Positions 438 to 10,464 of a stretch of 64,000 bases of DNA are shown here, piece by piece; within the stretch, counting starts at the first letter, position 1; every line of letters begins with the position of its first letter. Location of the stretch: the IMG/VR virus record IMGVR_UViG_3300045988_085064, one strand, 5' to 3'. The DNA is from a virus. The notes below the pieces were generated by a model. It saw only the letters and a program-made list of their open reading frames with translations. It was not told the DNA's origin and searched no databases. Both the position numbers and the translations under genes were made by a program.

Positions 438-845
438 ATGTATATGTATAACTATTTGGAAGCAGTTACCAACGACGCAAAACAAGCTATTCTCGAAAAC
501 ATGAATGACTGGAACTTTGCAGACCGGGAAGAACTGGAAGAAATCGCAAGTGATGAGTTGTGGGTAGATGATAACGTGACCGGCAATGGAAGTGGAAGCT
601 ACAGTTTCAATTCTGAAATGGCAAAAGAATATGTGCTTGAGTCTGATGACGGGCTAGACACTCTCCGCGATGCAGCCAAGGATTATAACTGTGAACACAA
701 AGCATTCACAGCGTTTTTAGAAGAGAACTGGGAATATCTGGATGTTACAATCCGTTGCTATCTTTTATCGCAGGCAATCAGCGCCGCCATTGATGAGCTG
801 GAAGAAGAAGGGAAAATTCAGTATTCGGAAGAAGAAGAAAAGTAA
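438..845 (+). CDS. hypothetical strongly acidic protein
   Basis: ATG 438 follows GGAGGA (424-429) and abuts the upstream stop. Asp/Glu-rich composition only; function unknown. Confidence 0.5.
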   Translation: MYMYNYLEAVTNDAKQAILENMNDWNFADREELEEIASDELWVDDNVTGNGSGSYSFNSEMAKEYVLESDDGLDTLRDAAKDYNCEHKAFTAFLEENWEYLDVTIRCYLLSQAISAAIDELEEEGKIQYSEEEEK

Positions 846-921
846 ACATTTCCGCGCGGTTTCCAAAGGGTTTCCGCTCAAAAATCCATGAACATTTTAT
901 AAAAAAGGAGATTTTTTTGCA

Positions 922-1176
922 ATGAAATATAAAGCCAATTTAATTGGAAAACGATATATAAAAAATGGATATGCTACAGAGCTTTTTTATGAATATCGCG
1001 GAAAAGAATACATGTTAACCGCGTACAATAACGGATATATGGAAGATTCGCTATATAAGCGACATAAAGAAGAACAATATAAGATCGATGAAATGATCAA
1101 GAATGAGAATAAATCAGTTCAGCAAGGAACTTTCAATCTTGATGAAATATTCAATATTTTAGAATCGGAGGAATAA
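922..1176 (+). CDS. hypothetical protein
   Basis: 84-aa ORF with AAGGAG upstream. Confidence 0.45.
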   Translation: MKYKANLIGKRYIKNGYATELFYEYRGKEYMLTAYNNGYMEDSLYKRHKEEQYKIDEMIKNENKSVQQGTFNLDEIFNILESEE

Positions 1177-1179
1177 AAA

Positions 1180-1449
1180 ATGAAAAACGACATATCTAAA
1201 ATTTCTATATCCGTTATTGTAAACCATACGGAAAGAACGACGACGGTTAAAATGTCAGGAGAAAAAACGCCAGTGTCATTTATTCAAACTGCCAGTCAAT
1301 CCGCATACGTCGCCGCTCTTCGAGATGCTGCATTTTATTTACTTGAAAAGGCTGCTTTACTTGATGAAAAAAGTCCGTATAATACACGGGAGCAGGTGGT
1401 CAAAATGTTTAATGAGCATCGCGGATTCAATGAAAAGGAGCTTTTTTAA
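1180..1449 (+). CDS. hypothetical protein
   Basis: 89-aa ORF tightly packed after the previous gene (GGAGGA upstream). Confidence 0.45.
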   Translation: MKNDISKISISVIVNHTERTTTVKMSGEKTPVSFIQTASQSAYVAALRDAAFYLLEKAALLDEKSPYNTREQVVKMFNEHRGFNEKELF

Positions 1450-2399: not shown

Positions 2400-2587
2400 T
2401 AATAAGCCCGTTATCATGCCAGACGGAACAGAGACAACGCCAGCGCGTTATTTCGGCACGGAGGATGTTCACGACGTGTTTATATCGTGGTATGACGTAA
2501 AGGGCGAACTTTGGCCGGGTGAAACGGCATAGAACGCCCACCACGCCCCGAACACAAAAAAACATATAAACATATGCCGCCGTTCTG

Positions 2588-2630
2588 AAAGCCCGTTGGC
2601 AAGCCGCTGACGGGCTTTTCTTTGCTTTTC
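2588..2630 (+). terminator. rho-independent terminator closing the left gene block
   Basis: AAAGCCCGT (2588-2596) pairs with ACGGGCTTT (2610-2618), followed by a T-rich run. Confidence 0.7.
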
Positions 2631-2742
2631 TATGTTCCTATAGCACTAGCATAGTTTGCGCCGTATACGTCCACCAGAGCCGCCAGAATGGCATTGTACA
2701 ATATACCTAAAATAGACGGCTTATTTTTGTGCAATTTTTTTG

Positions 2743-2771
2743 TTGACATATGGCGCACGATCTGTTATAAT
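2743..2771 (+). promoter_or_regulatory. consensus sigma70-type promoter (P1)
   Basis: TTGACA 2743-2748, 17-nt spacer, TGtTATAAT ending at 2771. Confidence 0.7.
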
Positions 2772-2777
2772 CAAAAA

Positions 2778-3340
2778 TGACCTATGGGCAACATATGAGG
2801 GGGGAGGAGAAGATATGCTAGTTAGAGACGGCTAACTATGTTGTTTAGACAATCTGCACAATTCCCAACTTTCCGGCACACTTTACTCAACTAAAGTATT
2901 TAGCTAGTCCAAGCTAACTCCAGAAGTTGCTCTTCACTAACTTCATTTCGTTAAAGTGAAAATCCAGGGTCATGTGCGCCTATGCGTATGCATACGCCCA
3001 AGAGATTTTTATTTTTCCGGGCCGGAGTATATAATATTATATATAGCGCGGCGGCTGGTCCTTCGCGTTGCCTAGCGCCATGTCCTGGACTAGCGGATCA
3101 GGGCTATGCGCACAACGGTATTCTTCAGCTCGAGTATGTAAAAGCCGTAGCGACGTTTTGCCGAAAGATTTTGACAGAGGTATAAATATTCTTAGTGAAA
3201 TGTGAACTTAACTCAAATCGGCACCGACGGCGCGACATGATTATGATGAAATTTGCGCTCACAGTTTGCACGTCTTATGCCATATAGACAAGTTACCAAC
3301 CGACAGCCACACATTATTTTACGATGGAAAAATGTGTGAG
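2778..3340 (+). ncRNA. candidate large structured non-coding RNA (class unknown)
   Basis: About 560 nt downstream of P1 with no credible ORF. G+C is visibly higher than in the flanks. Many local helices, for example 2819-2825/2832-2838, 2900-2905/2912-2917 and 3054-3061/3087-3094. Confidence 0.35.
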
Positions 3341-3399
3341 TGTACACAAATCTCCTACGAAAAATGTGATGATGTTGACTTTGATGCTAATACGCTAAT

Positions 3400-3720
3400 C
3401 AATATGTATATGAAAGTATGATAATGCTTCTATTCATAGACATAAAACTGTATATTGCTTATAAATACATATATCTATATCATGTGTATTTCTATCTGCA
3501 TCATTTATGTGCATGATGATGTAGATGTATCTGCATATGAATATGTAAATGTATATGCAGGTGGATGTGTAAATGATAATGATTATTGTTATTGTATATG
3601 TATATAGGTATCTATATATACACGAGCTGGAAAATGAAAAATGACTTTCCTATATGTAAATACAGCCCGAAAATGAAATTCTAAAATTGGAATTGATATT
3701 TACAATTCCAAAATGAAAAT
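3400..3720. repeat. AT-rich low-complexity tract plus phased AAAATGAAA 9-mers (candidate origin or DNA-bending region)
   Basis: TATR-type low complexity over 3400-3620. TATCTGCAT appears twice and TGTAAATG twice. AAAATGAAA occurs at 3631, 3670 and 3710, about 40 nt apart. Confidence 0.4.
3687..3711. promoter_or_regulatory. operator-like perfect inverted repeat TTGGAATTG-N7-CAATTCCAA
   Basis: 9-bp arms at 3687-3695 and 3703-3711, just upstream of P2. A third TTGGAATTG lies at 3797-3805, downstream of the predicted start site. Confidence 0.45.
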
Positions 3721-3732
3721 TAAAATTCGTAC

Positions 3733-3761
3733 TTGACAAATAGAATCAAATGTGGTATACA
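3733..3761 (+). promoter_or_regulatory. sigma70-type promoter (P2)
   Basis: TTGACA 3733-3738, 17-nt spacer, TGgTATACA. Confidence 0.65.
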
Positions 3762-4024
3762 TATATACGAGGTGATAATTATGACGTGACTAATTATTGG
3801 AATTGTATTTTTTGTATTCTTTTTTTTATTTGCATTTTTTGGATTGGTAATGGTACATTGTATTTACGTCAAAAATGGAGGGAAATTATATTTTGATGAG
3901 TGGATTAAAAAAGTATGGCACAAAATTTGGTGATGATGATGTATGTACTCTATAATCACAAATACTATCTTATACACAATGCCATAGGACAATATTATGT
4001 TAGAGAAATGGAGGAGCTGTTTGA

Positions 4025-4156
4025 ATGATTGATGTATTGTGGAATGTCGTTTGTTGCATTGGATATGTCGCGTTTGCTTTGATTGGGATTTTATTGTGTG
4101 TTGCATTAGTTGGTTGTATTTTGAAATTGATTAAAATTTTTAAGGAGAATATCTAA
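4025..4156 (+). CDS. 43-aa membrane micro-protein
   Basis: GGAGGAG SD, then ATG 4025. Sequence MIDVLWNVVCCIGYVAFALIGILLCVALVGCILKLIKIFKENI. Too short for the ORF track. Confidence 0.35.
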   Translation: MIDVLWNVVCCIGYVAFALIGILLCVALVGCILKLIKIFKENI

Positions 4157-4220
4157 TGATTGAAACAAGAATTTATAAATGCGAATATTGCGGTGCAGGT
4201 TACGATTTCTGAGGTATATT

Positions 4221-4427
4221 ATGGATAATGTGTTAGTTAAATTTATAAAAATAATGTATGAACAGGCTAAAATGTCAAAAGATTCGTTAGATATCCATCT
4301 GTATATTGCAAATTGCGTAGGCGCTTGTGCATATGAGCATATGAGAACAGGAGAGAGACTTGCATTTAATTTATGGAAGAACGAATGGAGTGAAAAATTT
4401 AACAAATTGCTTGAAAATAATTCTTGA
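4221..4427 (+). CDS. hypothetical protein (68 aa)
   Basis: ATG 4221 follows TGAGGT. This is the in-frame inner start of track ORF 4179-4427. Confidence 0.4.
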   Translation: MDNVLVKFIKIMYEQAKMSKDSLDIHLYIANCVGACAYEHMRTGERLAFNLWKNEWSEKFNKLLENNS

Positions 4428-4452
4428 CAAACAATAAATCATATGGTATAAT
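4424..4452 (+). promoter_or_regulatory. consensus promoter (P3) driving tRNA and zinc-ribbon gene
   Basis: TTGACA 4424-4429, 17-nt spacer, TGgTATAAT. Confidence 0.7.
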
Positions 4453-4555
4453 ACAGATGTGGTTGAGAGATTGGGTAATCTCAATTACAATTCTTCATTG
4501 TGAACCTCCTGAAAATATAGTCCTGAGCATGACGCTAAAAGGCTCAATCAAATAT

Positions 4556-4648
4556 GGCGGTGTCGGTTAATGGTAAGCCAGCGGTCTTATAAACCGTTTA
4601 GCTCTAGATTGGGGCAAAATCAGAGTTCGACCCTCTGCGCCGCTACCA
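4556..4648 (+). tRNA. atypical class-II (long variable arm) tRNA, formal anticodon UAU, CCA encoded
   Basis: Manual cloverleaf. Acceptor GGCGGTG/CGCCGCT, D arm GGTT-AATGGTA-AGCC, anticodon arm GCGGT-CTTATAA-ACCGT, 23-nt variable region, T arm CAGAG-TTCGACC-CTCTG, discriminator A plus CCA. Confidence 0.6.
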
Positions 4649-4678
4649 GATAAAATCCAAATCCAATGAGGTGATAAT

Positions 4679-4915
4679 ATGGAAAAATCTCCACTAAAAG
4701 CCATCCGCGCAAAATGCTTGGATTGTACTTGTGGTCAAGCAAGCGAAGTTAAAAATTGCCAAATCAAGCAATGTCCACTTTGGGAATATAGATTTGGCAA
4801 ATCAGGGCGTACCCGCTCAATGACCGACGAGCAGAGGCAAGCTGCGGCAGAACGGCTCAAATCAGCTCGTCTGGCAAAGAAATCATTGACTAATAATGAA
4901 GAAAATTCAGATTAG
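4679..4915 (+). CDS. small zinc-ribbon protein (CxxC...CxxxxC)
   Basis: 78-aa ORF with a GAGGTGA SD. N-terminus KAIRAKCLDCTCGQASEVKNCQIKQCPLWEYRFG. Confidence 0.6.
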   Translation: MEKSPLKAIRAKCLDCTCGQASEVKNCQIKQCPLWEYRFGKSGRTRSMTDEQRQAAAERLKSARLAKKSLTNNEENSD

Positions 4916-5052
4916 TTGATTAAGTAAGGTAAGTTGTAGGGTAAGTAGTTAAGAGGAATTTATTGATTATTAGTGTATGATTATTTTATTTGCTTGTTTA
5001 GGCTCGTTTGCGGCTGGCGTTGCAGTTGGGATGCTGATTGCAAAAACAATGC

Positions 5053-5081
5053 TTGACAAATAAAATCAAGTATGGTATAAT
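5053..5081 (+). promoter_or_regulatory. consensus promoter (P4) of the 1-kb tRNA/structured-RNA transcript
   Basis: TTGACA 5053-5058, 17-nt spacer, TGgTATAAT. Confidence 0.7.
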
Positions 5082-5092
5082 TGAAAATGTAA

Positions 5093-5267
5093 ATAATATC
5101 CGACCGGATTTGAAGATAACCGTCAAAATCTATATCACGCCTGTACTGAGGTCTGCGCAGAGTTTGAGAAGCGGCAGATACAGACTAGAGAATTGGGGTC
5201 GCGCCTGAGCGTGTTCCGTTAGCATGAGGACAAAAACATAACGGCAAAGGTGATATAAGGATATTAT
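5093..5267 (+). ncRNA. closed structured RNA domain D1 (unknown class)
   Basis: ATAATATCC (5093-5101) pairs with GGATATTAT (5259-5267). Nested inside it, TATATCAC (5131-5138) pairs with GTGATATA (5250-5257). No ORF. Confidence 0.35.
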
Positions 5268-5335
5268 GTAAACATCATTCACGGGTCAGTGCTAGAAATA
5301 GCTATGAGGTAGGAAGCTGGCTTGAGATAAAATAT

Positions 5336-5420
5336 GCGGGATTGGTGGAATTGGCAGACACATCTGATTCAAGCTCAGATGCCGTAAGGCGTAGGGATTC
5401 GAGTTCCCTATCCCGCACCA
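5336..5420 (+). tRNA. tRNA-Leu (anticodon CAA)
   Basis: Canonical class-II cloverleaf. Acceptor GCGGGAT/ATCCCGC, D region GTGGAATTGGCAGACAC, anticodon arm TCTGA-TTCAAGC-TCAGA, long variable arm, T arm AGGGA-TTCGAGT-TCCCT, ACCA end. Confidence 0.9.
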
Positions 5421-5512
5421 TTAAGTCCACAGCTTGTTGGATGCATACGGCTTGCTAAACTGAATAGGAATCCAATGCTTCTAATGGGTTGATGCTTAAA
5501 GCCCATTTCCAT

Positions 5513-5607
5513 ATGATAGCAAGTAGCGCAAATTTTATATAAGATGCTCAATGAGAATTGGGGAATGTATATAAGATGAGGTCATGCGCGGCCTCGCTTG
5601 CTATCAT
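5513..5607 (+). ncRNA. closed structured RNA domain D2 in a tRNA-equivalent position
   Basis: An 11-bp terminal helix: ATGATAGCAAG (5513-5523) pairs with CTTGCTATCAT (5597-5607). It is preceded by the same leader hairpin and CCATAT motif as the tRNA-like element at 5726. Contains an internal direct repeat TATATAAGATG twice. Confidence 0.3.
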
Positions 5608-5725
5608 AACCAGTAGTTATGGTTTGTTGACCATTGTTTGGATTACTAGCCAATCGATGCCTAGAGTCGATAAAAACAAATCAATGGCGGTTCTGGTAGG
5701 TTGAGCCTAAAGCCTACTACCATAT

Positions 5726-5799
5726 GACCGTATCAGCTAATTGGTAAGCCCAAGCTGTTCAGAGCAGTTGGAATGCAGATTCAAATCCTGCTTCGGTCA
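5726..5799 (+). tRNA. tRNA-like element, formal anticodon CAG, imperfect
   Basis: Acceptor GACCGTA/TTCGGTC has one T-T mismatch. There is an extra nt between the D and anticodon stems. Anticodon arm AGCTG-TTCAGAG-CAGTT. T arm GCAGA-TTCAAAT-CCTGC has an A-C mismatch. No encoded CCA. Needs tRNAscan-SE. Confidence 0.35.
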
Positions 5800-5805
5800 T
5801 ACGAT

Positions 5806-5987
5806 TATAGGATTGCACACAGTTATGCCCACCATTGTAACTGACCCAGATGCAAACCTAAGAAAATCTTAAAACCCTTAGTAAATAACGCGCGTCACTG
5901 CTAAGGTTGGCTGTTGGTCGAATCTCATCTAGTACCATCCGAAGAGCAAAACTGGAAAATGTGCTCATAGTGCGGTGATAATCCTAT
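5806..5987 (+). ncRNA. closed structured RNA domain D3 (unknown class)
   Basis: ATAGGATT (5807-5814) plus GCAC (5815-5818) pairs with GTGC (5970-5973) plus AATCCTAT (5980-5987). Followed by hairpin ATAGGG (6001-6006) with CCCTAT (6052-6057). Confidence 0.3.
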
Positions 5988-6140
5988 TCCGTGCATTGGT
6001 ATAGGGCTTGGGTAAAGATGACCTTGTAAGTAGTTGATAGTGGAACAATAACCCTATATATCAAGTCAATATGCGCATGAACATTGCGACTTGTTTTAAT
6101 AAAATTTTATTAGAAATTGAAAGGAAATTAAAAGGAATTT

Positions 6141-6416
6141 ATGACAAAGAAGGAACTAATCAAGTTTGTAGCAGATAGTACAGAGAATACGGTCAAGGAC
6201 ACAACTGAGATCGTAGATACGTTCATTGACTATATCAGACATAGCCTAGTTCAGCATGAAGATGTGGTGATTCATGGCTTTGGCAAGTTTACAACTAAGC
6301 TGCGAGATGCAAGAACTGCTCGTAATCCACAGACTGGTAAAATCATTGAAGTCCCTGCCAAGTATGCTCTGACGTTTAAGCCGACAAGCACACTAAAGGC
6401 AGAAATCAATGAGTAA
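6141..6416 (+). CDS. hup: HU/IHF-family DNA-binding protein
   Basis: 91 aa. Sequence KKELIKFVA...VVIHGFGKFTTKLRDARTARNPQTGKIIEVPAKYALTFKP is the classic HU arm motif. Confidence 0.85.
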   Translation: MTKKELIKFVADSTENTVKDTTEIVDTFIDYIRHSLVQHEDVVIHGFGKFTTKLRDARTARNPQTGKIIEVPAKYALTFKPTSTLKAEINE

Positions 6417-6430
6417 ATAATCCTCCTGTT

Positions 6431-6467
6431 AAAATCCCTATGGTCGAAAGATTGTAGGGATTTTTCT
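6431..6467 (+). terminator. rho-independent terminator after hup
   Basis: AAAATCCCTA (6431-6440) pairs with TAGGGATTTT (6455-6464), then a T run. Confidence 0.7.
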
Positions 6468-6477
6468 AAAATAACCC

Positions 6478-6506
6478 TTGACAAATTGTCGCTATGGTGC
6501 TATACT
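6478..6506 (+). promoter_or_regulatory. sigma70-type promoter (P5)
   Basis: TTGACA 6478-6483, 17-nt spacer, TGcTATACT. Confidence 0.7.
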
Positions 6507-6535
6507 TAAATCATCAAATGAAGGAGCTGAACATT

Positions 6536-7375
6536 ATGAATGAACTGTTTATTATGAGCCTCAAGGCAAAGCATCGTAGCGAAGGCACTGTTCGTGAATA
6601 TACCAAGGCGATTGAGAATTGCATGGCTTATGTCAATAAGCCTGAAGCTGAAATCAAGCCGATTGACCTTGAATTGTGGCAGTCCAGCATGAGCAATCTC
6701 AGCTCTGCATCTGTTGCTCAGAGAACATCTGCGGTCAGAGAATACTTCAAATTCCTTTATCGGAATGAATTCATTAGCCGCAATCCGGCTGAGATGCTTG
6801 AAGCACCGCAGATTAAAAATCGTGAGCAGTCAGCTCTTAATGGTGAACAGGTCAGGGCAATGGTCAATGCGGCAACTAATGAGCGCAATAAAGCAATTAT
6901 TATGATGCTTGCTCAGACTGGTTTGCGTATTCATGAGCTTGCTAATATCACGCTTGAACAGTATGAATCCCGTAGTAATAATGTGCTGGTCATCCGTGGC
7001 AAGGGCGATAAGGATAGGCTGGTTGGTCTGGCAGATGAAACAATCGAGCTGATTGATAACTATATTTCCAATGAGCGCAAAGATGGATGCGAATATCTGT
7101 TCGTAGGCAATCGTGGAAATAAAATGGATGGCAAGAACACCAGCGCCATGCTCAAGGTATGTGCTAGAAAAGCTGGTATTGAAAATTGGGAAGAATTGCA
7201 TATTAGTAATCATACCATGCGCCGCACATTTGCTACTATGATGTCTGAGGCTGATGTACCTATTGAGATCATTAGTAAAGCAATGGGGCATAGTTCAGTT
7301 GCCATTACAGCGAATAGATATATTAAGCGTACAGAGCAGAGAGCAATTAACGCAATGAGCGTTGTTAATTTCTAA
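6536..7375 (+). CDS. tyrosine recombinase/integrase (XerC/D-like)
   Basis: The C-terminal sequence HTMRRTFATMM...MGHSSVAITANRYI carries the R..H..R..Y catalytic pattern. ATG 6536 follows GAAGGAG. Track start 6494 lies upstream of the predicted transcription start. Confidence 0.85.
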   Translation: MNELFIMSLKAKHRSEGTVREYTKAIENCMAYVNKPEAEIKPIDLELWQSSMSNLSSASVAQRTSAVREYFKFLYRNEFISRNPAEMLEAPQIKNREQSALNGEQVRAMVNAATNERNKAIIMMLAQTGLRIHELANITLEQYESRSNNVLVIRGKGDKDRLVGLADETIELIDNYISNERKDGCEYLFVGNRGNKMDGKNTSAMLKVCARKAGIENWEELHISNHTMRRTFATMMSEADVPIEIISKAMGHSSVAITANRYIKRTEQRAINAMSVVNF

Positions 7376-7403: not shown

Positions 7404-7898
7404 ATGTTTGAGTACAAATTCTTTACTGGTAACACTGCTCCGAAATATGTGGAGGGAGATTATTTGCTTACTGTAAAGGGAAATGTGATGGAAATGAAAA
7501 AGGTAGGTGAAGCAAATACCGTTAAGGTGTCTTCTATTTGTAAAGAGGGAGACACTTGGAGCCTTCAGGGTGGAATTGAAGACTGTCTTTCTAAGGTTCC
7601 AGAAAGCACCAGAATCAATGTTGGCGATACAGTCAAATTCAAGAATGACATGAATAATTTTTTCTCTTGGCGCGAAACGGCAGAGATGAGAGAATTTATC
7701 GAGAAAGAAAATATGCTCATGAAGTATGTTCTTAGTGCTGTTGAAACTGAACGAGCAATTGAAAATCTTGAAACATTTAAATATGTGCGCGATATGAGTT
7801 TTGTAGTGCTTTATATTGATTCCCGGTTTGCTTATATTTACGAAGGCCAGACTGGCTATGGGCTGTTTGTTGAAACAAAGGATATTAAGCGCGTATGA
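7404..7898 (+). CDS. hypothetical protein
   Basis: ATG 7404 follows AAGGAGG. 164 aa. Confidence 0.55.
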   Translation: MFEYKFFTGNTAPKYVEGDYLLTVKGNVMEMKKVGEANTVKVSSICKEGDTWSLQGGIEDCLSKVPESTRINVGDTVKFKNDMNNFFSWRETAEMREFIEKENMLMKYVLSAVETERAIENLETFKYVRDMSFVVLYIDSRFAYIYEGQTGYGLFVETKDIKRV

Positions 7899-8406: not shown

Positions 8407-8647
8407 TGCTGACGAATTAGAGCAAATCCTCGTTAAAGATTTTGAATTTTATCCAGCAATTGTTCGCCGCGCCATTCAACGATGTAAGACTCTTGATATT
8501 CCAAATATTGTAAGATGTCGTAATTGCAAGTATTGTAAGCAAAATCTATTTATGGGGAACTATTGGTGTAATAAGTTTGTTGGTAAAATTAGTGTTTGTA
8601 ACCCAGATGGATTTTGTGAATATGGAGAAATGAAGAATGGATGGTAA
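8393..8647 (+). CDS. Cys-rich hypothetical protein
   Basis: ATG 8393 is 6 nt after GAGGTG. Confidence 0.5.
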   Translation: MRPIDADELEQILVKDFEFYPAIVRRAIQRCKTLDIPNIVRCRNCKYCKQNLFMGNYWCNKFVGKISVCNPDGFCEYGEMKNGW

Positions 8648-8903
8648 GGACCGTCTAACCCCGCTATGGATTGCAGGAGGCGCAGTCCTATTTGTAAGCT
8701 CACTGTTGCCTCTGTGCGGCTCGATTGTAGACTTTGTACAGTCAGTTATCAATGCTAAGATTAACCGTATGTCGTTTGAACTAGAGCTTGACAAGGCAGA
8801 ACATGAAGCTGCTGCTGAAAAGATTGCGCCTAGCCCTGCTATCACCCAAGCTATTGGGTTTAGCTTGCCGCCTGAGCCTGAATATGAGGAGGGACATGAA
8901 TGA
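8637..8903 (+). CDS. membrane protein
   Basis: N-terminal TM helix LWIAGGAVLFVSSLLPL. Confidence 0.45.
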   Translation: MDGKDRLTPLWIAGGAVLFVSSLLPLCGSIVDFVQSVINAKINRMSFELELDKAEHEAAAEKIAPSPAITQAIGFSLPPEPEYEEGHE

Positions 8904-9094
8904 GCCGTAGACCTAATCACGTCTATGACATTCCTTGTATGCGATGCGATTGTCAAACAGATTGTGACAAATATGTAAAAATCGACCCACGCATGACCGC
9001 ACAGAGAGATAAAATGTGGAATGACGCAGATTTGAATTGTATGGATTGTGTACTGAGAAATGTGCTAAAAATGAGGAAGGAGTCGGCTAATTGA
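8900..9094 (+). CDS. Cys-rich hypothetical protein
   Basis: 64-aa ORF coupled to its neighbours. Confidence 0.45.
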   Translation: MSRRPNHVYDIPCMRCDCQTDCDKYVKIDPRMTAQRDKMWNDADLNCMDCVLRNVLKMRKESAN

Positions 9095-10464
9095 CAGATA
9101 AAGGCTGTAAAAAGCCATATATTCATTTCTTGTCAAATGCCGCAGTTGACGTAACTGGCTCTTGTCATCATGTGCGATTCAAAAAATATAGCATCCTCCT
9201 AGATTGTGGCATGATACAGGGGATGGGAGATATTGTATCTAACTATAAGGCTAATCTTGCACAACTAAAAAAGATTAAACCAAGGGATGTAGATTTTATT
9301 GTATTGGGGCATAGCCATTTAGATCATATTGGGCTTGTTCCTGCATTATATGCTAAAGGATGCAATGCGCATCTCTATGTGCCATCTGGCTCTACTAATT
9401 TTCTCAAATTGTTATGGGAAGATAGCCTAAAAATCATGCGATCTGATTGTCTGAAAATTCAGAATAAGCACGGACAGAAAGCTGCGCCATTCTATGACGA
9501 ACAAGCTATTGAACGTGCGCTTAATCGCATTATAGAGATTGATTATAACATACCAATCTCGCTTGCACCAGACATTAAATTGACATATTATCCAGCCGGT
9601 CATATTATCAATTCGGCGCAATGCGTACTTGAGCTAAAAGATGGATATGTGACTAAGCGCATTGGTTTCACTAGTGATATTGGTGGTGTATCTGAAAAAC
9701 CGTACAAAGCGCGTAGACAGCCGTTGCCATTTGTTGATGTTCTTATCTCTGAATGCACATATTGCCAACAGGGGCGACCCAACAGCCACAAGGATAGAGA
9801 TAAGGATATTGAGAAGATTAAGACGGTTATTGCTGAATCCAATAAAATACTAATCCCATGTTTTTCTCTTGACCGAACACAATCTATGTTGCGCCTATTA
9901 CATGATAAGGGTATTGATAAGCAAATCAAAATTTATCTTGATTCCCCTCTTGCATCTAAATTCTGTGCAATCTGGCCGTGGGAAGAAGATGAAATTGAGA
10001 ATGTGCGAATTGTTGAATCTCAAGAAGAATCAGTTAATCTACAAATGCGAAATGAGCATTGCTTAATCATAAGTGCATCAGGCTTCCTTGTCGGAGGCCG
10101 GATTATGAGTCATCTAAAAACGGCTCTGCCTGATAGTTGCAATCATATCTTATTCTGCGGCTTTGCTGGGGAAAATGGACTTGCGTCTCAAATTAAATCC
10201 AATATGCCAGAGGTCAATATTGATGGCGTGAATGTAGCGAACAAAGCCAATATCACAGAACTGCGCTCATTTAGTAGCCATGCTAGTTATGAAGAATTGA
10301 TTGACTACTTAACAAATCAATGCCGTTTCAATAAACTATGCTTAGTGCATGGGAACTATGAGAACAAAGTAGAATTTTCTCATACATTACAAGATGAGCT
10401 AATAAAACAAGGTAAATCAAGTAGAGTAGTATGCACTCAACAAGATCAGCGAATTTATTTGTAA
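9091..10464 (+). CDS. MBL-fold / beta-CASP-type metallo-nuclease
   Basis: HxHxDH motif (LGHSHLDHIGLVP). 457 aa, a length typical of RNase J/CPSF/SNM1-like enzymes. TTG start. Confidence 0.8.
   Translation: MTDKGCKKPYIHFLSNAAVDVTGSCHHVRFKKYSILLDCGMIQGMGDIVSNYKANLAQLKKIKPRDVDFIVLGHSHLDHIGLVPALYAKGCNAHLYVPSGSTNFLKLLWEDSLKIMRSDCLKIQNKHGQKAAPFYDEQAIERALNRIIEIDYNIPISLAPDIKLTYYPAGHIINSAQCVLELKDGYVTKRIGFTSDIGGVSEKPYKARRQPLPFVDVLISECTYCQQGRPNSHKDRDKDIEKIKTVIAESNKILIPCFSLDRTQSMLRLLHDKGIDKQIKIYLDSPLASKFCAIWPWEEDEIENVRIVESQEESVNLQMRNEHCLIISASGFLVGGRIMSHLKTALPDSCNHILFCGFAGENGLASQIKSNMPEVNIDGVNVANKANITELRSFSSHASYEELIDYLTNQCRFNKLCLVHGNYENKVEFSHTLQDELIKQGKSSRVVCTQQDQRIYL

What the first reader, a model, noticed from the sequence alone, without database searches (positions are those of the whole stretch)
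2580..6140. A 3.5-kb protein-poor locus driven by four consensus promoters, dedicated to tRNAs and structured RNAs
Between the terminator at 2588-2630 and hup (6141), the only convincing CDS is a 78-aa zinc-ribbon gene plus a few micro-ORFs. Yet the region holds four near-perfect promoters, all pointing rightwards: P1 2743, P2 3733, P3 4424 and P4 5053.

Their transcripts would contain:
- a roughly 560-nt GC-elevated RNA;
- a micro-ORF cluster;
- an atypical tRNA plus the zinc-ribbon gene;
- a roughly 1-kb RNA with tRNA-Leu embedded among closed helical domains.

Devoting about 5% of the window, with the strongest promoters, to non-coding RNA suggests an RNA-based function. Large ornate RNAs of the ROOL and GOLLD classes are known to sit in Firmicute phages next to tRNAs, so they are the first hypothesis. 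A new class is the alternative.
Basis: partly seen in the sequence, partly recalled or inferred. Interest (0 to 1): 0.8.

Follow-up and report, generated by a model that had tools for sequence, protein, structure and literature searches.

The report
Phage tRNA and structured-RNA cassette array
This stretch of a human-gut phage genome really is a nearly protein-free, promoter-rich locus that makes tRNAs and several small folded RNAs, one of them an undescribed 177-base RNA, but it is a shuffled array of independent RNA cassettes, not one giant ROOL- or GOLLD-like RNA.

Summary

- No ROOL, GOLLD, raiA, tmRNA or intron model matches, even at E<=10.
- 66 related ~90-kb human-gut phage contigs show a mosaic of small cassettes with sharp breakpoints. 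Each cassette is present or absent on its own, and three relatives lack the whole P4 array. This argues against a single 1-kb RNA.
- Window 5092-5268 is a real, unannotated structured RNA. It has 38 pairs in 8 helices, 99% paired, 17 pairs with compensatory changes, and a divergent 132-nt paralogue.
- Around it lie tRNA-Leu(CAA), a low-scoring tRNA-like gene (CAG), a very stable Y-shaped RNA, and modules ending in a covarying hairpin plus NCCA.
- tRNA(UAU) carries a conserved extra arm.
- The P1 "560-nt RNA" has no support. Its promoter cassette is optional, the sequence evolves fast, and the fold z-score is -0.4.

Best reading: a hyperplastic early region whose tRNA-punctuated transcripts are diced into tRNAs for A/U-ending codons and stable small RNAs of unknown role.

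The parts
2587..2619 (+). Intrinsic-terminator-like hairpin that closes the upstream small-gene block.
   Evidence: 14 pairs, 7 of them G-C, followed by a T-run.
2743..2771 (+). P1, a perfect extended -10 promoter. It belongs to a ~115-nt optional cassette that also holds a G-rich SD-like run and the hairpin 2820-2837.
   Evidence: In one search the cassette is a clean presence/absence indel: present in L003, L004, L012, L020, L021, L023 and L026; absent in L001, L005, L013, L016, L017 and L022.
2778..3730 (+). Non-coding spacer. It holds a fast-evolving GC-richer part (2900-3200, with the palindrome GCGTATGCATACGC at 2984-2997) and an AT-rich repetitive part (3400-3730). No conserved RNA structure was shown.
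   Evidence: One search gives a fold z-score of -0.42. One search gives no credible Rfam hit.
3733..3761 (+). P2, with the same promoter-cassette sequence as P3 and P4 but a -10 of TATACA.
   Evidence: (repeat family D1).
3915..4427 (+). Micro-ORF cluster: 37 aa (3915-4028), 43 aa with a transmembrane look (4025-4156), 18 aa with CxxC (4156-4212) and 68 aa (4221-4427). SD sites are evident for the last three; the first has only a weak one. In relatives this spot holds up to ~4 kb of other small genes.
4424..4452 (+). P3, a perfect extended -10 promoter.
4459..4555 (+). P3 leader RNA and the best-conserved stretch of the locus. It has a 5' hairpin, an invariant unpaired ACCUCCU (anti-Shine-Dalgarno-like) and the pre-tRNA hairpin 4523-4547.
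   Evidence: present in 25 of 26 relatives at 90-95% identity; 49 sequences; the hairpin.
4556..4648 (+). tRNA with anticodon UAU and a ~20-nt extra arm (stem GCUC/GGGC, loop UAGAUUG). CCA is encoded.
   Evidence: Searches show the UAU anticodon kept on at least 6 different tRNA backbones in relatives, with the extra-arm stem covarying.
4679..4915 (+). 78-aa Cys-rich (zinc-ribbon-like) protein gene of unknown function.
   Evidence: full length in 25 relatives at 69-79% aa identity. Searches give no family.
5053..5081 (+). P4, a perfect extended -10 promoter.
   Evidence: conserved at 95%.
5092..5268 (+). 'Block A': a 177-nt structured RNA not in Rfam. The closing helix is AUAUCC/GGAUAU. A hairpin carries the invariant loop AGAUAACCG. 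The helix UAUAUCAC/GUGAUAUA encloses three hairpins, one with the invariant loop AGAGUUUGAGAA.
   Evidence: alignment A2; model R1 scores the window at 196.8 bits. Alignment A4 has 45 distinct sequences, 38 pairs, 99.2% paired and 17 pairs with double changes, against 6.3 in shuffles (0/500). A 132-nt paralogue occurs in L014 and L018.
5272..5335 (+). Leader hairpin of tRNA-Leu. The stem is 5281-5324 with an inner GAAA-capped hairpin. It travels with the tRNA, not with block A.
   Evidence: In one search, L015 and L019 have it without block A, and L003, L008, L011 and L017 have a 288-nt insert between the two.
5336..5420 (+). tRNA-Leu(CAA), class II, with CCA encoded.
   Evidence: 50.9 bits.
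5421..5511 (+). Module C. It ends in the hairpin AAUGGG-UUGAUGCUUAAAG-CCCAUU (5483-5507) followed by UCCA.
   Evidence: (z -2.2).
5514..5612 (+). Module D, a very stable Y-shaped RNA. It has an 11-bp closing stem, a long AU-rich arm and a GC hairpin next to the 3' strand, then UAACCA.
   Evidence: -36.2 kcal/mol, z -5.14, 0 of 200 shuffles as stable. Only L012 and L022 share it, with a 54-nt insert in the long arm.
5613..5722 (+). Module E. It ends in the hairpin GGUAGG-UUGAGCCUAAAG-CCUACU (5695-5718) followed by ACCA.
   Evidence: 21 sequences, 3 pairs with double changes.
5726..5799 (+). Low-scoring tRNA-like gene of class I shape with anticodon CAG. The loop-proximal T-stem pair (G53-C61 in standard tRNA numbering) is broken to A-C, and there is a U6-U67 mismatch. 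It is probably decaying.
   Evidence: 29.5 bits against a threshold of 29. ARAGORN does not call it; the nearest homologue, in L097, is an ARAGORN-called tRNA(UAG); other relatives carry CAU, UAU, UGU or UAC tRNAs at this position.
5800..6062 (+). Modules F (5800-5881), G (5881-5963) and H (5963-6062). They are small hairpin domains, each with its own distribution among relatives.
   Evidence: H has a covarying hairpin (GGGU/ACCC to GGCG/CGCC). F has z -3.1.
6063..6416 (+). The hup 5' region, present in all relatives, followed by the HU gene, which is the last cistron of the P1-P4 transcripts.
   Evidence: 26 of 26 relatives..
6432..6467 (+). Hairpin AAAUCCCUA...UAGGGAUUU plus a T-run. It is the likely common terminator and is followed by the next promoter at 6478.
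   Evidence: Read from the sequence. The simple scan did not list it, so this is an inference.

Best explanation
This is the hyperplastic early region of a ~90-kb human-gut Firmicute phage. It is built from exchangeable cassettes, most of which start with a copy of one host-type (sigma-A, extended -10) promoter.

The P3 and P4 cassettes are non-coding RNA operons. No terminator is predicted before the hairpin after hup, so their transcripts would run on through hup.

These transcripts are punctuated by tRNAs and by tRNA-like ends (a stem followed by NCCA). Host RNase P and 3'-trimming enzymes would therefore cut them into discrete molecules:
- tRNA(UAU)
- tRNA-Leu(CAA)
- a probably decaying tRNA(CAG)
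- the ~100-nt P3 leader
- the 177-nt block A RNA
- the smaller modules C to H

The tRNAs top up decoding of the A/U-ending codons this AT-rich phage favours. Block A and the other folded modules are independent, stable small RNAs whose targets are unknown.

What is shown: the promoters, tRNAs, covarying structures, cassette mosaicism and absence of coding capacity.

What is inferred: transcription itself, RNase P dicing, the codon-compensation role, and any action of the small RNAs in trans.
For: Promoters:
- The consensus occurs 11 times against 0.12 expected, and P2, P3 and P4 share a 39-nt cassette.

Mosaicism:
- Breakpoints are sharp.
- In a scan of 66 family loci (26 IMG/VR loci and 42 metagenome loci), block A matched in 59, C in 16, D in 2, E in 20, F in 17, G in 10 and H in 22-34.
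- The P4-to-hup interval ranges from 524 to 2213 nt and is ORF-poor in all relatives. It is absent in L006, L009 and L010.

Block A:
- All 8 helices have at least one compensatory pair. 99.2% of cells are paired. 17 pairs show double changes, against 6.3 +/- 1.7 in shuffles. Slid controls give covariation <=0.05 against 0.189 observed.
- Indels between variants are 1, 4, 1 and 7 nt, so the sequence is not coding.
- A paralogue keeps helices P1, P2 and P3 and both invariant loops, with a different interior.

Hairpin before each tRNA:
- There are three variants. 4 of the 6 stem pairs show double changes. The covariation score is 0.744 against 0.224 in shuffles.
- Cassette junctions fall directly after CCA: CCA|UAUG, CCA|GUAG, CCA|UUGA.

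tRNAs:
- The family carries anticodons UAU, CAA, UAA, UAG, CAU, GAA, UGU, UAC and UCC.
- The phage's favoured codons include CUA (24 per 1000), ACA (24), GUA (25) and AUA (15) in the + strand genes.

Precedents:
- Promoter/stem-loop cassettes shuffle genes in T4-type phages (PMC2839356, PMC4122927).
- Phage tRNAs serve codon supply or escape from tRNA nucleases (PMC10264068, PMC11555353).
Against: - There are no expression data, so transcription and processing are inferred from consensus matches.
- The host is unknown, so codon compensation cannot be tested against host codon usage.
- The comparative set is a single phage family. Most compensatory changes in block A come from two divergent lineages, so the number of independent events is small. 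Alignment A4 was also fitted to the model.
- Most modules (C, D, F, G) have little or no covariation and rest on thermodynamics alone. Modules G and H, and the P3 leader, fold no better than shuffles.
- The P3 and tRNA-Leu leader hairpins are not followed by CCA, so the 'tRNA-like end' idea covers only modules C, D and E.
Confidence: 0.6

Rival explanations
1. The whole P4 transcript (5088-6140) is one large multi-domain ornate RNA, either a distant ROOL or GOLLD relative or a new class of that kind, with tRNA-Leu embedded in it as tRNAs sometimes are in the GOLLD linker.
For: - The transcript is about 1 kb with no ORF, in a phage, next to tRNAs.
- It has many closed helices.
- GOLLD and ROOL are found in phages near tRNA islands. 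GOLLD has a variable 5' half and sometimes carries tRNAs in its linker (PMC12286853, PMC5737381).
Against: - No ROOL or GOLLD match at E<=10 with permissive filters.
- None in seven relatives at the gathering threshold.
- The domains are present or absent independently, are reordered, and have other modules inserted between them. Three relatives lack them all.
- No region is universally conserved in the way the GOLLD 3' half is.
- No long-range pairing between modules was found.
Confidence: 0.05
2. The folded modules have no function of their own. They are cis-acting spacers that protect the tRNAs and the hup mRNA from nucleases and guide tRNA maturation.
For: - Every tRNA is preceded within 6-12 nt by the conserved hairpin.
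- The tRNA-Leu hairpin travels with the tRNA.
- The modules are dispensable in some relatives.
Against: - Block A keeps 12-nt and 9-nt loops invariant across lineages and in a paralogue whose stems have changed. That is more than a passive spacer needs.
- Module D and RAGATH-33 (in L012) are free-standing folds not adjacent to a tRNA.
Confidence: 0.2
3. The conserved non-coding sequences act mainly as DNA. The hairpins would be recombination sites that shuffle cassettes, integron-like and served by the adjacent Xer-type tyrosine recombinase. The 2780-3730 spacer would be a replication origin or operator region.
For: - A tyrosine recombinase gene lies just downstream, at 6494-7375.
- Cassette turnover has sharp junctions.
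- There are AT-rich repeats, a 14-nt perfect palindrome and GAAAAATGTG-like boxes in 2980-3730.
- The P1 cassette sits upstream of an AT-rich tract.
Against: - Junction sequences differ from one breakpoint to the next, so there is no common core site.
- The hairpin has 6-bp arms and a 12-13-nt loop with no attC-type R/L boxes.
- The recombinase is co-directional and downstream, not divergent as in integrons.
- Stem covariation with G-U intermediates (U-G pairs counted) points to RNA, not DNA.
- The repeat box is not enriched in the window: 41 found against 35 expected.
- GC skew does not switch here.
Confidence: 0.1
4. The region is decayed or recoded protein-coding sequence.
For: Small ORFs of 40-70 codons are scattered on both strands.
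Against: - No stop-free stretch exceeds 127 codons under any single stop-codon reassignment.
- Long ORFs elsewhere in the window read normally in the standard code.
- Indels between block A variants are not multiples of three, and substitutions are compensatory in helices.
- The relatives' arrays are equally ORF-poor.
Confidence: 0.03

Closest known systems
Phage tRNA islands with co-transcribed structured ncRNAs (GOLLD RF01998, ROOL RF03087)
   Same: - Phage-borne, adjacent to tRNAs and probably co-transcribed with them.
- No protein partner or function is known.
- Structure is supported by covariation (PMC5737381, PMC12286853).
   Different: - Block A is 177 nt, against about 580-800+ nt.
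- It has no sequence or structure match.
- The locus is an array of separable small domains, not one obligate multi-domain fold.
RAGATH-33 RNA (RF03102) and other RAGATH candidate RNAs
   Same: A bona fide RAGATH-33 copy (139.9 bits, threshold 120.4) sits in the equivalent P4 array of relatives L012 and L022. This type of locus has therefore already yielded a catalogued candidate structured RNA.
   Different: - The window has no RAGATH-33, and none of its modules matches any RAGATH model.
- The function of RAGATH-33 is unknown too. The name and origin of the family are given from my own knowledge of the Weinberg et al. surveys. The held paper text does not describe it.
T4 tRNA gene cluster with its two small stable RNAs, and other non-tRNA RNase P substrates of phages (P1/P7 C4 RNA, phi80 M3 RNA)
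   Same: A polycistronic phage transcript carries tRNAs and small stable RNAs of unknown function that host tRNA-processing enzymes release. This is established knowledge and was not checked in a paper here.
   Different: - The host clade differs.
- There is no sequence relation.
- Here several non-tRNA modules end in stem + NCCA.
- Processing has not been shown.
PeSL mobile regulatory cassettes of T4-type phages
   Same: Repeated early-promoter (plus stem-loop) sequences flank small accessory genes in hyperplastic regions and mark the insertion, deletion and replacement junctions between close relatives (PMC2839356, PMC4122927).
   Different: - Here the cargo is largely RNA genes.
- The promoter is a Firmicute-type extended -10.
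- Many junctions lie at module ends (after CCA), not at promoters.
Phage tRNAs for codon compensation or escape from tRNA-cleaving defences
   Same: The anticodons match A/U-ending codons that the phage favours. The backbone of the UAU tRNA has been replaced repeatedly while the anticodon was kept, as expected if decoding capacity or nuclease escape is selected (PMC10264068, PMC11555353).
   Different: tRNA architecture is unusual. UAU sits on class-II-like bodies of 90-95 nt, and the Leu anticodons CAA, UAG and CAG sit on class-I bodies of 74-77 nt. The amino-acid identity of these tRNAs is unknown.

Membership tests
ROOL RNA (RF03087) | Match to the ROOL covariance model (~580 nt, P1-P19, pseudoknots). 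| tested here: not met
   cmscan of 2500-6500 at E<=10 gave no ROOL hit. The whole window and 7 relatives gave none at the gathering score.
GOLLD RNA (RF01998) | Match to the GOLLD model, in particular the universally conserved 3' half. | tested here: not met
   No hit. No part of 5088-6060 is universal among relatives.
ROOL/GOLLD-like 'large ornate RNA' as a kind | A single RNA over 500 nt whose domains are co-inherited and linked by long-range tertiary pairs. | tested here: not met
   Modules assort independently: A in 59, C in 16, D in 2, E in 20, F in 17 and G in 10 of 66 family loci. Three relatives lack the array.
ROOL/GOLLD-like 'large ornate RNA' as a kind | Homo-oligomeric nanocage assembly. 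| not testable with these tools
   This needs cryo-EM or native gels (PMC12286853).
tRNA (RF00005) | Cloverleaf match above the gathering score, with an intact acceptor stem and T arm. | tested here: met
   4556-4645 scores 49.4 bits and 5336-5417 scores 50.9 bits. ARAGORN calls both.
tRNA (RF00005), applied to 5726-5799 | Cloverleaf match above the gathering score, with an intact acceptor stem and T arm. | tested here: inconclusive
   The score is 29.5 bits against a threshold of 29, and ARAGORN does not call it. The loop-proximal T-stem pair (53-61 in standard numbering) is A-C, and positions 6-67 are U-U. The intact homologue in L097 carries UAG.
tmRNA, group I/II introns, raiA, self-cleaving ribozymes | Match to the Rfam model. 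For tmRNA, also detection by ARAGORN. | tested here: not met
RAGATH-33 (RF03102) | Match to the model at >=120.4 bits. | tested here: not met
   The window has no hit. Relative L012, at 7770-7882, scores 139.9 bits.
Integron cassette array | An attC site with R''/L''-L'/R' boxes at each cassette's 3' end, and a common GTT crossover point. | tested here: not met
   The hairpins have 6-bp arms, a conserved 12-13-nt loop and no RYYYAAC/GTTRRRY boxes. Junction sequences differ between breakpoints.
Integron cassette array | An IntI-type integrase divergent from the array, with attI and Pc. | tested here: not met
   The recombinase at 6494-7375 lies downstream, is co-directional and is Xer-like. It scores 66 bits against the integron-integrase model, whose cut-off is 265.
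PeSL-type promoter cassette shuffling | A repeated early-promoter sequence at the boundaries of indels between close relatives. | tested here: met
   P2, P3 and P4 share a 39-nt repeat. Relatives carry 3-8 copies in the region. Homology blocks start or stop at 5043-5093. P1 is itself an indel.

The most novel reading that the evidence does not exclude
Block A would be the founding member of a new phage ncRNA class. The non-tRNA modules that end in stem + NCCA (C, D and E) would be tRNA-acceptor mimics released by RNase P. Together with architecture-swapped tRNAs, they would form an exchangeable 'RNA toolkit'. It would decoy or saturate host enzymes that recognise tRNA ends or anticodon loops, for example tRNA-tail nucleases of the Cas12a3 type, for which no viral countermeasure is yet known (PMC12851939), or anticodon nucleases.
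Probability: 0.1. Interest if true: 0.85.

Novelty: new variant of a known kind. Interest (0 to 1): 0.6.

Why it matters
Phage tRNA islands are where the largest unexplained bacterial RNAs (GOLLD, ROOL) live. What these RNAs do is a long-standing open question.

This locus offers a simpler, dissectable version in a phage family recovered from many human-gut metagenome assemblies:
- a set of small, separately inherited folded RNAs
- one with strong covariation and invariant loops
- natural presence/absence variants that amount to ready-made deletion mutants

It also shows tRNAs whose anticodon is conserved while the body, and even the structural class, is swapped. That bears on whether phage tRNAs are selected for decoding or for evading tRNA-targeting immunity.

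If the CCA-ending modules prove to be acceptor mimics, they would be a new kind of counter-defence.

Tried and rejected
1. ROOL, GOLLD, raiA, tmRNA, introns and ribozymes: no Rfam or ARAGORN match.
2. Recoded or decayed coding sequence: rejected (and the indel pattern).
3. Homologues outside the family:
   - GenBank phages and PLSDB plasmids match only the tRNA-Leu.
   - A 17-mer from block A hit only family members plus 5 chance coding hits in IMG/VR.
   - nhmmer against 23 unrelated loci found nothing in the RNA modules; its one weak hit, in L054, lies in the zinc-ribbon gene.
   - GTDB genomes gave nothing, either for an RNA pattern or for the DNA polymerase. The host and any lysogen remain unknown.
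4. Replication-origin idea for 3200-3730: the GAAAAATGTGA-like box is not enriched (41 against 35 expected), and GC skew only switches at ~32.5 kb, with gene orientation.
5. A 'UUGUAAG' loop motif seen in relatives' arrays: there are only 2 copies in the window's array. The cluster at 8508-8698 lies inside densely packed small ORFs. I dropped it.
6. Three IMG/VR contigs end at window-equivalent 2606-2619. I considered a physical genome end. An assembly break at the border of a strain-variable region is at least as likely, and I did not pursue it.
7. 'TTATGTAAAC' at 5266-5275 resembles the XerD arm of B. subtilis dif (from memory). No matching left arm exists, so I treat it as coincidence.
8. 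Long-range pairing of the invariant block A loops with other modules: nothing conserved was found by eye.
9. The window's tRNA-like gene as 'one tRNA with a mutating anticodon': rejected. The relatives carry different tRNA bodies at that position.

Full report
**What is in the sequence**

- A strong terminator-like hairpin lies at 2587-2619.
- Three perfect TTGACA-17-TATAAT promoters with an extended -10 TG lie at 2743, 4424 and 5053.
- A fourth, at 3733, has the same -35 and TG but a -10 of TATACA.
- The consensus with at most one mismatch occurs 11 times in the 64-kb window, against 0.12 expected. The promoters are therefore real.
- Seven of the 11 matches lie outside the locus, in front of ordinary genes (6478, 10481, 14493, 16384, 17744, 18418, 24668, and 49146 on the other strand); P2, with two mismatches, is not among the 11. 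This is the phage's general host-type promoter. The locus is enriched in it, not privileged.

ARAGORN and Rfam agree on a 93-nt tRNA with anticodon UAU at 4556-4648 and on tRNA-Leu(CAA) at 5336-5420. A permissive Rfam scan adds a borderline tRNA at 5726-5799 (29.5 bits). hup is a clear HU gene, and 6494-7375 encodes a Xer-like tyrosine recombinase. The 78-aa Cys-rich ORF is kept at full length in 25 relatives.

Neither 2630-3760 nor 5082-6140 yields a stop-free stretch above 127 codons. That holds under the standard code and with any single stop codon reassigned.

**Known RNA families**

No ROOL, GOLLD, raiA, tmRNA, intron or ribozyme model matches 2500-6500, even at E<=10 with relaxed filters. 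The only other hits are noise-level microRNA and snoRNA models in the AT-rich repeats.

**Relatives**

The recombinase and the zinc-ribbon protein retrieved 26 IMG/VR genomes of about 48-101 kb. A degenerate pattern from the RNA retrieved 42 more contigs, several of them labelled human gut metagenome. The polymerase is a DnaE-type Pol III alpha. It is closest to a Clostridioides phage (50% aa) and to Bacillus phages (43%). The promoters and Shine-Dalgarno sites are Firmicute-like. No cultured phage, plasmid or GTDB genome carries the locus.

**The locus is a mosaic**

Between the terminator and hup, the relatives align with the window only in blocks with sharp ends. Other sequence is inserted or substituted between the blocks.
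- The P4-to-hup interval is 524 to 2213 nt long and ORF-poor in every relative. The one exception is a 185-aa ORF in L018.
- L006, L009 and L010 lack the interval altogether.
- In a scan of 66 family loci (the 26 IMG/VR loci and the 42 metagenome loci), block A matched in 59, C in 16, D in 2, E in 20, the tRNA-like gene in 31-37, F in 17, G in 10 and H in 22-34.
- P1 is itself an optional ~115-nt cassette.
- P2, P3 and P4 are copies of one 39-nt sequence.

Independent assortment is the main argument against a single 1-kb ornate RNA.

**Block A (5092-5268)**

This is the strongest finding. An alignment of 25 distinct sequences gives a three-way scaffold enclosing three hairpins. It has 38 pairs, 99.5% paired, and 11 pairs with changes on both sides. 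The covariation score is 0.250 against 0.128 in shuffles (0/500) and at most 0.06 when partners are slid.

A covariance model built from that alignment scores the window at 196.8 bits. It also finds a second, 132-nt paralogue in L014 and L018 (64 bits). The paralogue keeps helices P1, P2 and P3 with changed base pairs. It also keeps both conserved loops, AGAU(A/C)ACCG and GAGUU(U/G)GAGAAG, around a different interior.

With the paralogue included, there are 45 distinct sequences. 17 of the 38 pairs show compensatory changes, against 6.3 +/- 1.7 in shuffles, and every helix has at least one. Indels between variants are 1, 4, 1 and 7 nt, which excludes a coding explanation.

Caveats:
- The variation comes from a few lineages of a single phage family.
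- The last alignment was fitted to the model.
- The single-sequence fold energy is unremarkable (z -0.27).

**Other modules of the P4 transcript**

Every tRNA or tRNA-position RNA is preceded within 6-12 nt by a hairpin with a 6-bp stem and a conserved 12-13-nt loop, WUGA(N)GNNUAAAG. There are three variants in the family and three copies in the window, at 4523-4547, 5483-5507 and 5695-5718. 4 of the 6 stem pairs show double changes.

Two of these hairpins are followed by UCCA or ACCA. Module D is a very stable Y-shaped fold (-36.2 kcal/mol, z -5.14) and ends in UAACCA. In relatives, the sequence after these CCA triplets switches between different cassettes: CCA|UAUG-tRNA, CCA|GUAGUU and CCA|UUGAC. 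Modules C, D and E therefore end like tRNAs.

The hairpin in front of tRNA-Leu (5272-5335) travels with the tRNA, not with block A. L015 and L019 have it without block A, and four relatives have a 288-nt module between the two.

Modules F, G and H are small hairpin domains. H has one covarying hairpin. G and H fold no better than shuffles.

In L012 and L022, the equivalent array contains a genuine RAGATH-33 RNA (139.9 bits). This kind of locus has therefore already contributed a catalogued candidate RNA. The window has none.

**The tRNAs**

At the P3 position, the relatives carry at least six different tRNA bodies, all with anticodon UAU. Most have a ~20-nt extra arm whose stem covaries under a conserved loop, UAGAUUG. 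Conversely, the Leu anticodons CAA, UAG and CAG occur on class-I-sized bodies of 74-77 nt as well as on normal class-II ones.

The window's 5726-5799 gene has anticodon CAG. Its loop-proximal T-stem pair, G53-C61 in standard tRNA numbering, is broken, and it has a U-U in the acceptor stem. Its intact homologue in L097 has UAG. It is probably decaying.

The family's anticodon set is UAU, CAA/UAA, UAG, UGU, UAC, UCC, GAA and CAU. This fits the phage's preference for CUA, ACA, GUA and AUA. That supports codon supply, although the host's codon usage is unknown.

**The P1 and P2 parts**

Positions 2778-3330 fold no better than shuffles (z -0.42). Its promoter is optional. Positions 2900-3200 are homologous to the relatives but too diverged for blastn. 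Only short local hairpins are kept. I find no support for a conserved 560-nt RNA.

An origin or operator role for the AT-rich repeats at 3400-3730 is possible but unproven. The repeat box is not enriched, and GC skew does not switch here.

The P2 part is a real micro-ORF cluster, most of its ORFs with clear Shine-Dalgarno sites. In relatives that position holds up to ~4 kb of other small genes.

**How it most likely works**

The simple scan predicts no terminator between 2630 and hup. A hairpin with a T-run follows hup at 6432-6467. The four promoters therefore probably give nested transcripts with a common 3' end, and hup would be the last cistron.

I propose that host RNase P and 3' trimming cut the P3 and P4 transcripts at the tRNAs and at the tRNA-like stem-NCCA ends. 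This would release the tRNAs, the ~100-nt P3 leader, block A and the smaller modules as separate RNAs. The P3 leader carries an invariant unpaired ACCUCCU.

The tRNA role is reasonably grounded. The roles of block A and the other modules are unknown. The cassette turnover resembles the promoter/stem-loop (PeSL) shuffling of T4-type hyperplastic regions (PMC2839356, PMC4122927).

**Verdict**

The locus is neither ROOL nor GOLLD, and it is not one large RNA. It is a cassette array of tRNAs and small folded RNAs, and it contains at least one well-supported RNA family that is not in Rfam.

I rate it as a new variant of a known kind (phage tRNA-island ncRNAs), with interest 0.6.

Noticed in passing
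window 9091-10464 (+): A 457-aa beta-CASP metallo-beta-lactamase with an RNA-specificity (RMMBL) domain. It resembles archaeal aCPSF1 (1e-59) and the type VII CRISPR Cas14 nuclease (9e-75), both below the curated cut-offs. The phage seems to encode its own RNA-processing nuclease 3 kb downstream of the RNA array.
   Followed up: partly
L012 7770-7882 (also L022): An Rfam RAGATH-33 RNA (139.9 bits) sits in the relatives' version of the P4 array. It is absent from the window.
   Followed up: partly
window 4556-4648 and family loci: tRNA architecture is decoupled from the anticodon. UAU occurs on 74-76-nt class-I bodies and on 90-95-nt bodies with an extra arm. CAA, UAG and CAG occur on class-I bodies as well as class-II ones. 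Many of the 93-nt copies have C instead of the near-universal U at position 33 (loop CCUAUAC). Which amino acid they accept is unknown.
   Followed up: partly
window 4504-4510 and 2796-2812: The P3 leader has an invariant, unpaired ACCUCCU, identical to the anti-Shine-Dalgarno tail of 16S rRNA. The optional P1 cassette carries a long G-rich SD-like run (GAGGGGGGAGGAG) with no credible ORF behind it (only MLVRDG). Possible SD/anti-SD mimicry.
   Followed up: no
L014 8163-8294, L018 7360-7491: A shorter paralogue of block A lies upstream of the full-length copy in the same array.
   Followed up: yes
L003, L008, L011, L017 (e.g. L003 6261-6548): A 288-nt ORF-free module is inserted exactly between the block A closing helix and the tRNA-Leu leader. 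Relatives also carry further unclassified ORF-free modules between P4 and block A, for example 'GGGAACGUGCGUGAGACAAAUGAG...GGGAUUGGGAUUGAC' and 'GAUGAUGGUGCU...CAGCCAUCAU'.
   Followed up: no
window 4977-5063 (+): A 28-codon hydrophobic ORF (MIILFACLGSFAAGVAVGMLIAKTMLDK) overlaps the -35 of P4. It is conserved in about 11-15 relatives, but no good ribosome-binding site is nearby.
   Followed up: no
window 4916-4976: The non-coding stretch after the zinc-ribbon gene is 89-98% conserved in 25 of 26 relatives. It shares GUAAGUAGUU and an 'AAGAGGAAUUUAU' ribosome-site-like box with the hup leader at 6026-6142.
   Followed up: no
window 2640-2710 (-): A conserved stretch just downstream of the terminator could encode the C-terminus of a small hydrophobic peptide on the minus strand (...ILYNAILAALVDVYGANYASAIGT). 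Relatives without the P1 cassette lack a matching start codon, so it is doubtful.
   Followed up: partly
L003, L005, L017 contig ends (window-equivalent 2606-2619): Three independent IMG/VR contigs terminate within 15 nt of each other, just inside the terminator hairpin. This is either a physical genome end or repeat, or an assembly break at the edge of a strain-variable region.
   Followed up: no
L018 7212+843..1400 (array coordinates): One relative has a 185-aa ORF inserted in the array between tRNA-Leu and the next hairpin. It is the only sizeable ORF seen in any P4 array, and I did not identify it.
   Followed up: no
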